Shown here: positions 6,001 to 9,000 of the stretch, piece after piece
Numbering within the stretch: position 1 is the stretch's first letter
Layout of the letters: each line of letters starts with the position of its first letter
Source of the DNA: a virus
Lineage: Duplodnaviria > Heunggongvirae > Uroviricota > Caudoviricetes
Length of the DNA stretch: 38,324 bases
Direction: 5' to 3' (one strand)
Virus record (IMG/VR): IMGVR_UViG_2718218135_000002
Coordinates: 1 to 38,324 of that record
Program-made: the position numbers

Positions 6001-9000
6001 TCTGGTTTATATGAGCGAAGCATTTCGCTTATTGGGTCGCAACGTTTGCAGAGGCGATCAACTTCACTGTTGATTCGTTCGTAATCATCATCGGTAAAAC
6101 TTGCGATGATTTGCGATATTTCACGCTTATCATTCAGAGTCAGAATCATCATCTTTCTCCTGTTCTTTGTGCTGATTGAGCATTTCTTTCATCTGACGAA
6201 TGAATTCTTCGTCTGACCAGCTATCTGTAAAACTCATTTCCTGCGATACCACGGAGTGTTGATCGCTGATTTCATCGCTTTATTTGCTTCAAGCCACATT
6301 TTGGAATCACCAATAAATCTGGCTATTACTGCTTTGTTCTGTGCAGCACGAAGCATCTGGTGATTAATGGCTATTTCATTGCGCATAACGCCTCCAGTTG
6401 TTTCTTTGCTGCTCTGATTAATTGTTTAACTCGGCGTGATAATTCAGATTCGTGCGGGTAGAAAGCGGACATGACGCCGCTACCCGCGAGCTGAAAGTGC
6501 ATCATGGGTAACTCCTTATATTTGATTGCATAACGAAAACGCCTCGAGTGAAGCGTTATTGGTATGCATATAAAAAGGCCCTCACACTGGAGGGCAAAGA
6601 AGACTTCCAATAATCAGAACAAGTCGGCTCCTGTTTAGTTACGAGCGACATTGCTCACATAGCAGACTCGCAAATCTGCTATAGGTGCTTATTCGCATCG
6701 CATGACAACATCAAATTTTTCGAGATTACTTTGTCGCAACAATCCTTCTTCTACGCGGTCAGCTTTTCTATAATTATCAAATTCGAAATGTTTAATTACT
6801 TCTTTTGTTTCTCGCTCTATAACTTCAAAAATGTATTTCCTATTCATCATTCTTCCCCAAGAGCTTTTCTGATTGCTGCAAGACCTTTATTAACAGCTCC
6901 ATACCATTCTGGATATGTTGTCTTTGTTCTATTTTTGGTTTGCTTAAGTAATAACTGAAGTGCTTCGAGAAGGTCAGGTGCTGCCGCTATTAGATTGGCA
7001 TCTTCAATGCATTGAACTTCCTCACAGATTGCAATATACGAACGCCAGCCTGCGCCATTTTCAAGTGAGTCTGCCTGGATGATTTTAATCTCACCGCCAT
7101 CCATCATTATTTCCCACTTACCTTTAGTACCTTTGAATTCCATATTCACCTCTATGCTTGCTGCCAAAACAATGAACCATCCGGAAATTCCAGATAGTTC
7201 ATAATTCACTCTTCAATACTTCCAACTTACTAATCGCCGATAGATATCCGCGCTGATAGGGCATCATCATTCCTTCGAGCTTGCCACTTCTTAACTCCTC
7301 CCTGAGCAATTGTATTGCTTGATCAATAACCTCTGCCTTAGCGTCCTTTATGGCTTGCTTGCGGGGCTTTGCTTTCTGCTTTGGCAGATTTCTCAAGCAT
7401 GATGGAATGTATGTCTGATTCATCACTTACCTCGCTGTAACCTGCTTACTTGTACGATGACCAGCTGCGAAAAGCGCAACTTCTGGCAGGCAGACAGTAC
7501 CACTCTTCAAATCAGCCTCCTTTTTCTTTTTCTATATCAAAAAGCTGCTTTGCTTTTGTGACTAAAAGCAAAAAAGCCTTCTCGCTAATGAGCAGCATTG
7601 CCGTTCATCCTGAACCCGCCGCGCTCCCGACGCATGGTTTAAAGACGCGCCGTTCGTCTATGGGTTTATGATGTACTTAAAGTTCATTAATGTAAAGTAC
7701 CAATAGTACATTTTATGGGTATAAAAAGCTCACTACATCATAAGTTAGTGAACTTTAAGGAAATTTATTTTTATCCGAATCGCTTGTAATCGATTGACTG
7801 CCTAATGAGGACTTTGGCTAGAATGTGAAGTTGCTCTTCTTCACCTTCTTCTATGTACCATCGATCATAAGCGGCATTGTCAGAGATGACGGCAAGCCTG
7901 TTCTTTTGCATTTGCAGGCGCTTAACGTGCATTGTTTTCCCGTATACAAACACATAAATGCCATCGCCATCAAAACAGGTTATGGATACATCAACAAAGA
8001 TCTCATCTCCCGGATTGATGGTTCCCTCCATGCTGTCACCGCGAACCGTGATGACTTTTACGCTTTCCTGTGGCCTTCCATTAAATAAAATTCTTGCCTG
8101 CTCGGTCGTATATTCAATTGCTCTTATCTTTTCTATAAATTCATTGGAAACCATGGTTCCTGGCCCGGCGCTCGCCTGAACATCCAATACATCAACACGA
8201 TAATAATCATTTGATCTTGATAGATGATTTACCGTGATACCGTCATCATCAGCATAGCCATGCAGATATGCAGCAGTAGTTCCCAGCACCGAAGCCAGAG
8301 ATTCCATCTTGTCTTTTCTTGGTATTGACTCCCCGTTGAACCATTTACTAATGGCTTTTGGTGTGACCTTAAGCCTGACAGCTAAATCAGCCTGCCTACC
8401 ATGCAAAGGTAATCCCGCTTTATCACAGGCCAGCGCAAGCCTCTGCGAGAAAGTTTCACGCTCTTTCTGTTGAACCATAAGTTCAACTATATTAGGTATT
8501 GACTGTACTATCAGTTCCGTCATAATATGAACCATAAGTTCACCACAGGAGAGAAGCATGAACGAAGTTACGTTTGGAGAAGTTATCAAATCCGTTCGAG
8601 TTTCTGTTGTGGCTGATGTTTGTGGACTTACGCCAAAAGCCATCTATAAGTGGCTTGAGCGTGGTTCTCTGCCGCGTACCGAGTTCACTGGTGAAACCGA
8701 ATATGCGGATAAGATCGCCAAGGCATCAGGCGGCAAGTACTCAGCAGCACAGATTCGCCGTATCGGTAAACAGCAGTTTGTTATGTAATAAAAATGTACT
8801 TTTAGTACCGAACGGCCCGGTATACGGTCGGGTGCCCGGCGTGGTCAAGGATGACTGTCAATGGTGCACGATAAAAACCCAAATTATTTACCTATGGAGA
8901 TAGTAAGAAATGACACAAACAAGTTACAGCAAGCCAACACAGCGAGAAATTGATCGCGCTGAAACTGATTTACTCATCAACCTGTCAACGCTTACCCAGC

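What the first reader, a model, noticed from the sequence alone, without database searches (positions are those of the whole stretch)
8469..8542. Two exact copies of a 15-bp palindrome bracket the cro promoter
TGAACCATAAGTTCA occurs at 8471-8485 (extended to 19 bp GTTGAACCATAAGTTCAAC) and again at 8528-8542, flanking a near-consensus promoter (TTGACT, 17-18 bp, TAATAT) that drives cro. The first copy overlaps the likely leaderless cI start. Related half-site sequences (TGAACTTTAAG) occur left of cI near 7672-7686 and 7750-7764, where OL/PL is expected. These are the probable CI/Cro operators and define the immunity specificity.
Basis: seen in the sequence. Interest (0 to 1): 0.4.

Follow-up and report, generated by a model that had tools for sequence, protein, structure and literature searches.

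The report
HK022 phage repressor operators OR3 and OR1
The two identical 15-base sites are the already described OR3 and OR1 repressor-binding sites of the coliphage HK022 lysis/lysogeny switch, carried here unchanged in a mosaic prophage, so the finding is correct but ordinary.

Summary
TGAACCATAAGTTCA occurs exactly twice, at 8471-8485 and 8528-8542, and shuffles never produce such a repeat (0 of 300). Window 7530-9248 differs from coliphage HK022 at three positions, none in an operator. GenBank records X16093 (HK022) and HM173637 (HK75) already annotate these two sites as OR3 and OR1.

- The site is not a true palindrome: 5-bp arms TGAAC/GTTCA flank an asymmetric centre, CATAA.
- A third operator, OR2 (8504-8518, TGTACTATCAGTTCC), lies between the copies inside the PR spacer.
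- The annotated PR -10 is CATAAT (8521-8526).
- A further known site, OFR (8795-8809), follows cro.

The family consensus is TGWAC-N5-GTWCA. Relatives at 65-77% DNA identity keep the same sites, spacings and CI/Cro recognition helices. The cI ATG lies at the centre of OR3, 7 nt past the PRM -10, which fits a leaderless cI mRNA.

CI binding, its very high cooperativity and OL-OR looping are published for HK022. Verdict: interpretation supported, already known, low interest.

The parts
8471..8485 (.). OR3 operator (first copy), TGAACCATAAGTTCA. It is centred on the cI start codon (ATG = 8478-8476 on the minus strand) and on the predicted PRM start.
   Evidence: Exact match with flanking context to the X16093 'oR pot. 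repressor binding site' and the HK75 'oR3'. 14 of 15 positions are invariant in 8 relatives.
8504..8518 (.). OR2 operator, TGTACTATCAGTTCC. It lies in the PR spacer and shares one base with the -35.
   Evidence: Annotated in X16093 and HK75. Matrix score 18.2. 12 of 15 positions invariant in relatives.
8528..8542 (.). OR1 operator (second copy), TGAACCATAAGTTCA. It starts 2 bp after the PR -10 and covers the expected PR start.
   Evidence: Annotated as oR / oR1. The arms are invariant and the centre varies in relatives.
8499..8526 (+). PR promoter driving cro: -35 TTGACT (8499-8504), 16-nt spacer, -10 CATAAT (8521-8526).
   Evidence: X16093 and O276 annotations mapped exactly. Best promoter-scan hit, 10/12.
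8486..8514 (-). PRM (PM) promoter for cI: -10 TATAGT (8491-8486) and a predicted weak -35 CTGATA (8514-8509) inside OR2. The -10 ends 7 nt before the A of the cI ATG.
   Evidence: Promoter scan, 9/12. 'PM-10' is marked on this sequence in the supplement of PMC8053113. The start point itself is inferred.
7771..8478 (-). cI repressor gene, 235 aa, with HTH_3 and Peptidase_S24 domains.
   Evidence: No DNA difference from HK022 within the gene. Pfam hits. GenBank CDS mapping.
8558..8788 (+). cro gene, 76 aa, a helix-turn-helix protein.
   Evidence: GenBank mapping. phrog_35 'transcriptional repressor'. Shares the TPKAI.KW....S.PR motif with CI.
7672..7686 (.). OL1 operator, TGTACTTAAAGTTCA, in the PL spacer.
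   Evidence: X16093 oL feature. Best matrix score in the window, 21.8. Conserved in relatives.
7696..7710 (.). OL2 operator, AGTACCAATAGTACA, abutting the PL -35.
   Evidence: X16093 oL feature. Score 17.7. 13 of 15 positions invariant in relatives.
7749..7763 (.). Probable OL3, TGAACTTTAAGGAAA: a good left half-site and a degenerate right half, 53 bp start-to-start from OL2.
   Evidence: The same +53 position holds a site in the diverged relatives whose OL side was examined, and it is a much better match in Klebsiella phages (TGAACTTAAAGTATA, 15.7 bits). PMC8053113 cites '53 bp between OL2 and OL3'. The HK75 GenBank record instead places oL3 at 7718-7732, which scores 0.5.
7668..7696 (-). PL promoter: -35 TTTACA (7696-7691) and -10 CATCAT (7673-7668).
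   Evidence: X16093 and O276 annotation. Promoter scan.
8795..8809 (.). OFR operator, TGTACTTTTAGTACC, just after the cro stop codon and 267 bp from OR1.
   Evidence: The HK75 'OFR' feature is homologous with 1 mismatch. Score 20.2. Present at the same offset in all close relatives. PMC8053113 mentions a CI operator about 300 bp downstream of OR that is involved in immunity.
7590..7652 (-). putL antiterminator RNA element (context: the left operon controlled by OL/PL).
   Evidence: Exact match to the O276 and HK75 putL features.
8813..8869 (+). putR antiterminator RNA element (context: the right operon controlled by OR/PR).
   Evidence: Exact match to the O276 putR feature.

Best explanation
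The two identical 15-mers are OR3 (8471-8485) and OR1 (8528-8542) of the coliphage HK022 immunity region, which this prophage carries almost unchanged. Together with OR2 (8504-8518) they form a three-site right operator between the divergent genes cI (leftward, from PRM) and cro (rightward, from PR).

Dimers of the HK022 CI repressor (an HTH domain plus a LexA-like S24 self-cleavage domain) recognise TGWAC-N5-GTWCA.

Proposed mechanism:
1. CI fills OR1 and the intrinsically poorer OR2 together through very strong pairwise cooperativity. The sites are 24 bp apart, and literature reports a cooperativity factor of about 2000. This covers the PR start and the PR spacer and shuts off cro and the right operon.
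2. The same happens at OL1/OL2 over PL.
3. OL3 (53 bp, about five helical turns, from OL2), OFR (267 bp right of OR1) and OL-OR looping add further long-range cooperativity.
4. OR3 sits on the PRM start point and the cI ATG, so occupancy there (by CI at high concentration, or by Cro) turns cI off.
5. Because OR1 and OR3 have the same sequence, the order of filling cannot come from intrinsic affinity and must come from cooperativity and looping.

Shown here: sequence identity to HK022, the mapping of annotated sites, the site family and its conservation.
Taken from literature: CI binding, cooperativity, looping, and the role of OFR in immunity.
Inferred: Cro binding to the same sites, the exact PRM start (leaderless cI mRNA), and the order of occupancy.
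For: - Identity: window 7530-9248 is 99.8% identical to HK022, with 3 differences, none in an operator, cI or cro.
- Annotation: every operator and promoter feature of X16093, HK75 and O276 maps exactly onto the window.
- Site family: six sites score 17.7-21.8 bits with G2, A4, C5 / G11, T12, C14 invariant, and the next best site in 38 kb scores 10.5.
- Chance: the exact 15-mer duplicate never occurs in 300 shuffles.
- Phylogenetic footprint: 36/45 operator columns are invariant against 12/38 other columns in OR (p = 9e-6), and 35/45 against 26/68 in OL (p = 3e-5), among relatives at 65-77% DNA identity.
- Architecture: spacings of 33/24 bp (OR) and 24/53 bp (OL) are conserved.
- Variation: natural differences fall mostly in the central 5 bp while the arms stay fixed.
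- Proteins: the CI helix TPKA(I/V)SKWFNGE and the Cro helix AIYKW..G.LPRT are invariant in those relatives. CI and Cro share this motif (E = 2e-5). CI has HTH_3 and Peptidase_S24 domains.
- Literature: cooperative CI binding within OR and OL, DNase I patterns between OL2 and OL3, a downstream operator involved in immunity, and OL-OR looping shown in vivo (PMC8053113); cooperativity about 2000-fold (PMC7498355); the hybrid O276 carries only nun, cI, cro and cII from HK022 (PMC6256539).
- Promoters: the PRM -10 TATAGT lies 7 nt before the ATG.
Against: - Nothing contradicts the assignment.
- The primary footprinting papers (Carlson & Little 1993, J Mol Biol 230:1108 and J Bacteriol 175:7541; Cam et al. 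1991) are not in the held library. The experimental basis is therefore cited second-hand and through GenBank features that X16093 itself calls 'potential' binding sites.
- I found no direct evidence for Cro binding.
- The HK75 GenBank record puts oL3 at a different place (7718-7732) from the conserved site I favour.
- The predicted PRM -35 lies wholly inside OR2, with the OR2 centre about -33 from the cI ATG. The lambda model of CI at OR2 activating PRM may therefore not carry over.
Confidence: 0.96

Rival explanations
1. The two copies are a neutral local duplication or a chance repeat with no binding function.
Against: An exact 15-mer repeat within 100 bp never arises in 300 shuffles. The identity ends exactly at the site borders rather than extending as a duplication would. 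The same positions hold sites with conserved arms in relatives whose intervening sequence has diverged. The sites are annotated operators of a studied phage.
Confidence: 0.01
2. The sites are bound by a regulator other than CI/Cro, for example host LexA or OxyR, or phage CII.
For: One paper predicted a possible OxyR site near the HK022 pM start by one of its two search methods (PMC2903704).
Against: The motif TGWAC-N5-GTWCA does not resemble the LexA box (CTGT-N8-ACAG, from my own knowledge). It also does not resemble the CII repeat TTGC-N6-TTGT, which is annotated separately at 8919-8932. The sites co-vary with conserved CI and Cro recognition helices. The site set (OR x3, OL x3, OFR) is the one literature assigns to CI.
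Confidence: 0.02
3. In addition to acting as an operator, the 19-bp inverted repeat at OR3 works at the RNA level. In leadered cI transcripts made from the establishment promoter PE, it folds into a hairpin around the cI AUG and modulates translation. The leaderless PRM transcript lacks the 5' arm and escapes.
For: The minus-strand RNA 8500-8440 folds with an 8-bp stem, GUUGAACU/GGUUCAAC, enclosing the AUG. MFE is -13.2 kcal/mol, z = -2.0, and 6 of 200 shuffles fold as well.
Against: The significance is marginal. Any operator with inverted arms gives such a stem. The two flanking base pairs that lengthen the stem are not conserved in relatives and are explained by the Val-Gln-Gln codons on one side and the PRM -10 on the other. 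There is no experimental support.
Confidence: 0.05

Closest known systems
Coliphage HK022 right operator OR1/OR2/OR3 (GenBank X16093; Oberto et al. 1989; Carlson & Little 1993), also present in HK75 and the lambda/HK022 hybrid O276
   Same: The sequence is identical across OL, cI, OR, cro, OFR and putL/putR: 3 differences in about 1.7 kb, none in a site. The site positions, promoters and CI/Cro proteins are the same.
   Different: Only the genomic context differs. This prophage lacks nun to the left (HK022 homology starts at 7530). Beyond 9248 the sequence diverges from HK022; there the window encodes an O-like initiator and a DnaB-type helicase. It is a mosaic phage carrying immunity of the HK022 type.
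Bacteriophage lambda OR/OL tripartite operators and the CI/Cro switch
   Same: Divergent cI and cro genes. Three sites in OR and three in OL. OR1-OR2 are 24 bp apart. CI has an S24 self-cleavage domain. The cI start lies at the PRM start (leaderless). OL-OR looping occurs.
   Different: The site is 15 bp with 5-bp arms, against lambda's 17 bp. OR1 and OR3 are identical, whereas in lambda they differ and have different affinities. OR2-OR3 are 33 bp apart, against 23 in lambda. OR3 is centred on +1 of PRM, and OR2 at about -33, against about -42 in lambda. OL and OR are only about 0.8 kb apart. OL3 lies 53 bp from OL2. There is an extra OFR site. Pairwise cooperativity is much higher, about 2000 against 60-130. 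The lambda figures are from my own knowledge.
HK022-like immunity modules in Salmonella, Klebsiella, Citrobacter and Enterobacter phages and prophages (e.g. Salmonella phage S9-5 / vB_SalP_ABTNLsp11242, Klebsiella phage Kp4856-1, Citrobacter phage Omnitron, Escherichia phage Tritos)
   Same: The same consensus TGWAC-N5-GTWCA, the same 33/24 spacings in OR, the cI ATG inside OR3, and conserved CI and Cro recognition helices. Where the OL side was found, the 24/53 spacings are also the same.
   Different: In these relatives OR1 differs from OR3 by 1-5 bases. No OFR was detected in most of them (one, Escherichia sp. ESNIH1, has it). Tritos and a Shigella prophage have a 139-aa CI without the S24 domain.

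Membership tests
HK022 immunity region operators (imm HK022) | Sequence of OR3, OR2 and OR1 and their positions relative to cI and cro identical to HK022 | tested here: met
   All three sites match with flanking context to X16093 and HK75 features. The region is 99.8% identical. There are 3 differences in 7530-9248, none in a site.
HK022 immunity region operators (imm HK022) | Cognate repressor: the HK022 CI protein (235 aa, HTH plus S24) encoded next to the sites | tested here: met
   No DNA difference from HK022 within 7771-8478. HTH_3 and Peptidase_S24 domains found.
HK022 immunity region operators (imm HK022) | Companion sites OL1, OL2, OL3 and OFR present | tested here: met
   OL1 at 7672, OL2 at 7696 and OFR at 8795 score 17.7-21.8. 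The OL3 position at 7749 is conserved at +53 from OL2. The exact OL3 coordinates used in the primary paper could not be read.
HK022 immunity region operators (imm HK022) | CI protein physically binds the sites and represses PR/PL; lysogens are immune to HK022 | not testable with these tools
   Only second-hand evidence is available: PMC8053113 and PMC7498355 cite Carlson & Little 1993. The primary papers are not held.
Lambda-type CI/Cro bistable switch | Divergent cI and cro separated by a three-site operator overlapping PR and PRM, plus a second three-site operator at PL | tested here: met
Lambda-type CI/Cro bistable switch | OR1 and OR3 differ in sequence, so CI prefers OR1 and Cro prefers OR3 by intrinsic affinity | tested here: not met
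   OR1 and OR3 are letter-identical. Discrimination must come from cooperativity or looping. The element works like the lambda switch but with a different logic at this step.
Lambda-type CI/Cro bistable switch | OR2 positioned about -42 from the PRM start so that bound CI activates PRM | tested here: inconclusive
   The OR2 centre (8511) is about 33 bp from the cI ATG / predicted PRM start (8478), and the predicted -35 lies inside OR2. The PRM start was not verified here, and activation cannot be judged from sequence.
Lambda-type CI/Cro bistable switch | Cro binds the same operators as CI | not testable with these tools
   Indirect evidence only: CI and Cro share the TPKAI.KW....S.PR segment, and it is conserved in relatives.

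The most novel reading that the evidence does not exclude
The letter-for-letter identity of OR1 and OR3 may be a selected feature of the HK022 clade. All 14 viral contigs with this arrangement keep it, while sister modules at 65-77% identity have OR1 differing from OR3. OR2 is also centred only about 33 bp from the PRM start. Together these could mean a switch logic unlike lambda's. Cro could not distinguish PRM from PR, CI at OR2 could not activate PRM in the lambda manner, and all ordering would be delegated to extreme cooperativity and OL3/OFR/OL-OR looping. If the 1990s work did not already resolve this, it would be a modest new variant of switch design.
Probability: 0.08. Interest if true: 0.3.

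Novelty: already known. Interest (0 to 1): 0.07.

Why it matters
It matters little beyond annotation. It identifies this prophage as carrying HK022-type immunity, so it should be immune to HK022, HK75 and O276. It also fixes the coordinates of OR1-3, OL1-3, OFR, PR, PL and PRM in the window. Two small practical points came out of the comparison. And the 'oL3' feature in the HK75 GenBank record is probably misplaced relative to the conserved third left site.

Tried and rejected
- Primary papers: I tried Carlson & Little 1993 by PMC id, PubMed id and DOI. None is held.
- Loopometer supplement: Figure S1, which has the HK022 OL/OR insert sequences, is held only as an image. Only the cI leader with 'PM-10' was readable.
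- Literature searches for a leaderless HK022 cI transcript and for Cro half-sites gave nothing specific.
- Rfam search of 7000-9500 gave no family at gathering score, so putL and putR rest on GenBank annotation only.
- PDB sequence search with CI matched only UmuD on the S24 domain, so there is no structure to model DNA contacts.
- Arms-only motif search (TGAAC-N5-GTTCA, up to 2 mismatches) was not specific: 29 hits against 19.9 expected. It misses OL2 and OFR.
- The HK75 GenBank oL3 position (7718-7732) was considered as the third left operator and rejected in favour of 7749-7763. It scores 0.5 against 8.4 bits, and the latter matches the conserved +53 spacing and the '53 bp' statement in literature.
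- An RNA-hairpin role for the 19-bp extension was considered and judged weak.
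Full report
**Observation.** The 15-mer TGAACCATAAGTTCA occurs exactly twice in the 38,324-base window, at 8471-8485 and 8528-8542. The identity ends exactly at the 15-bp borders. In 300 first-order Markov shuffles of the window, no exact 15-mer recurred within 15-100 bp. The first copy extends to the 19-bp GTTGAACCATAAGTTCAAC at 8469-8487. The word 'palindrome' is only partly right: just 5 of the 7 symmetric pairs match, because the TGAAC/GTTCA arms pair and the centre CATAA is asymmetric.

**Identification.** Window 7530-9248 is the immunity region of coliphage HK022.
- It is 99.8% identical to AF069308/NC_002166 and X16093, and nearly identical to the lambda/HK022 hybrid O276 and to phage HK75.
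- A base-by-base comparison with the HK022 genome finds three differences in that stretch (7553, 7665, 9071), and none lies in an operator, cI or cro.
- X16093 annotates three 'oR pot. repressor binding sites', two oL sites, PR, PL and PE. HK75 names oR1-3, oL1-3 and OFR. O276 gives PR, PL, putL and putR.

Mapped onto the window, the features are:

| Feature | Window coordinates | Sequence or note |
|---|---|---|
| OR3 | 8471-8485 | TGAACCATAAGTTCA |
| OR2 | 8504-8518 | TGTACTATCAGTTCC |
| OR1 | 8528-8542 | TGAACCATAAGTTCA |
| PR -35 / -10 | 8499-8504 / 8521-8526 | TTGACT / CATAAT |
| cI | 8478-7771 (minus strand) | 235 aa |
| cro | 8558-8788 | 76 aa |
| OL1 | 7672-7686 | TGTACTTAAAGTTCA |
| OL2 | 7696-7710 | AGTACCAATAGTACA |
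| PL -35 / -10 | 7696-7691 / 7673-7668 (minus strand) | TTTACA / CATCAT |
| OFR | 8795-8809 | TGTACTTTTAGTACC |
| putL / putR | 7590-7652 / 8813-8869 | antiterminator RNA elements |

**The site family.** A symmetrised matrix built from the six annotated sites gives the consensus TGWAC-N5-GTWCA, with G2, A4, C5 / G11, T12, C14 invariant. Those six sites score 17.7-21.8 bits, and the next best site in the window scores 10.5. Exact matches occur only at OR3 and OR1, and at up to 2 mismatches the pattern is barely enriched (29 hits against 19.9 expected).

**Comparative evidence.** Diverged modules share only 65-77% DNA identity with the window. They come from Salmonella phage vB_SalP_ABTNLsp11242 (equivalent to S9-5), Klebsiella phages Kp4856-1, 2 LV-2017 and 2b LV-2017, Citrobacter phage Omnitron and Escherichia phage Tritos.
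- All keep three OR sites at start-to-start spacings of 33 and 24 bp. Where the OL side was examined, three OL sites lie at 24 and 53 bp.
- In alignments, 36 of 45 operator columns are invariant against 12 of 38 other intergenic columns in OR (Fisher p = 9e-6). The figures for OL are 35 of 45 against 26 of 68 (p = 3e-5).
- Several of the invariant non-operator columns are promoter hexamer bases.
- Natural variation falls mostly in the central five bases of each site, and the arms are fixed.
- The CI segment TPKA(I/V)SKWFNGE and the Cro segment AIYKW..G.LPRT are invariant in the same relatives, while the rest of both proteins diverges.
- CI and Cro share this segment with each other (E = 2e-5), which fits both proteins reading the same sites.
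- CI has HTH_3 and Peptidase_S24 domains, so it is a LexA-like, RecA-inducible repressor.

**OL3.**
- It lies 53 bp from OL2. The same +53 position carries a site in the relatives whose OL side was examined, and in the Klebsiella phages it is much stronger (TGAACTTAAAGTATA, 15.7 bits).
- PMC8053113, citing Carlson & Little 1993, speaks of CI-induced loop-like DNase I sensitivities 'in the 53 bp between OL2 and OL3'.
- The HK75 GenBank record places oL3 at the equivalent of 7718-7732 (GGTATAAAAAGCTCA), which scores 0.5 bits and is poorly conserved.
- I therefore favour 7749-7763 as OL3, about five helical turns from OL2. The primary paper would settle this.

**Promoter geometry and mechanism.**
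- OR1 begins 2 bp after the PR -10 and covers the expected PR start.
- OR2 fills the PR spacer.
- OR3 lies 14 bp upstream of the PR -35.
- On the other strand, a -10 TATAGT (8491-8486) ends 7 nt before the A of the cI ATG (8478), and there is no Shine-Dalgarno sequence. The same hexamer region is marked 'PM-10' in the supplement of PMC8053113.
The start point itself is inferred.
- Literature, second-hand: HK022 CI binds cooperatively to adjacent operators in OR and OL. A CI operator about 300 bp downstream of OR is involved in immunity. OL-OR looping was shown in vivo (PMC8053113). Pairwise cooperativity is about 2000-fold, against 60-130 for lambda CI (PMC7498355).
- The hybrid O276, which has only nun, cI, cro and cII from HK022 (excluding IS903), localises the HK022-specific functions to this segment (PMC6256539).
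- Because OR1 and OR3 are identical, the order in which they fill cannot come from intrinsic affinity. I infer that it comes from OR1-OR2 cooperativity and from looping.
- The predicted PRM -35 lies inside OR2, whose centre is about -33 from the PRM start. Lambda-style activation of PRM by CI at OR2 should therefore not be assumed.

**Distribution.** The looser OR architecture occurs in 5 species-representative genomes: Escherichia, Shigella and Enterobacter, plus a 1-kb contig labelled Streptomyces that is probably contamination. Nine complete E. coli genomes hold at least 80% of the 1.9-kb region. The best is strain ET729, with 100% coverage at 99.9% identity.

**Rivals.**
- Chance or neutral duplication is excluded by the shuffles and by conservation.
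- Another regulator is unlikely. The motif is unlike the LexA box (my own knowledge), the CII repeats are annotated separately at 8919-8932, and only a weak one-method OxyR prediction exists.
- An RNA hairpin around the cI AUG in leadered transcripts is possible but marginal (z = -2.0). The two extra base pairs that extend the palindrome to 19 bp are not conserved.

**Verdict.** The feature is the already described HK022 OR3/OR1 operator pair, so interest is low.

Noticed in passing
window 9773-9804 and 9839-9867: Two arrays of 11-bp iterons (TTGTCCAACGG x2.9 and TTGTCCAACAG x2.6) lie inside the O-like replication initiator gene (9387-10277, phrog_345). This is probably the phage replication origin.
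   Followed up: partly
window 6847-7530: HK022 homology stops at 7530 and the nun gene is absent; tblastn of Nun finds nothing. Its place is taken by two minus-strand ORFs of unknown function (7199-7426, phrog_5305; 6847-7209, phrog_1273). This is a mosaic phage with HK022 immunity but without Nun exclusion.
   Followed up: partly
window 7590-7652 and 8813-8869: The putL and putR RNA antiterminator elements are identical to the annotated HK022/O276 elements. No Rfam family matches them at gathering score.
   Followed up: partly
window 7718-7732 (equivalent to L003 1190-1204): The 'oL3' feature in the HK75 GenBank record (GGTATAAAAAGCTCA) scores about 0 with the operator matrix and is poorly conserved. 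The conserved third left site is at 7749-7763, so the database annotation is probably misplaced.
   Followed up: yes
L008 1242-1725 (Escherichia phage Tritos) and L027 (Shigella flexneri SFBU0723 prophage): These carry the same OR3/OR2/OR1 layout and a conserved CI DNA-binding domain, but CI is only 139 aa and lacks the S24 self-cleavage domain. This may be a variant of this immunity type that is not induced by RecA-mediated cleavage.
   Followed up: no
L025 (NZ_JBEOWA010000103.1, 1,026-bp contig labelled Streptomyces sp. NPDC002677): This contig carries the enterobacterial HK022-type OR and a 235-aa cI. It is most likely contamination in that assembly.
   Followed up: no
window 8469-8487, minus-strand RNA: In leadered cI transcripts the OR3 inverted repeat could fold into an 8-bp hairpin enclosing the cI AUG (MFE -13.2 kcal/mol for 8500-8440, z = -2.0). 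The leaderless PRM transcript would lack the 5' arm. The flanking pairs are not conserved in relatives.
   Followed up: partly
window 8900-8932: The PE (establishment) promoter and the CII-binding repeats (TTGC-N6-TTGT on the minus strand, 8932-8919) lie inside the 5' end of cII, as annotated in X16093.
   Followed up: no
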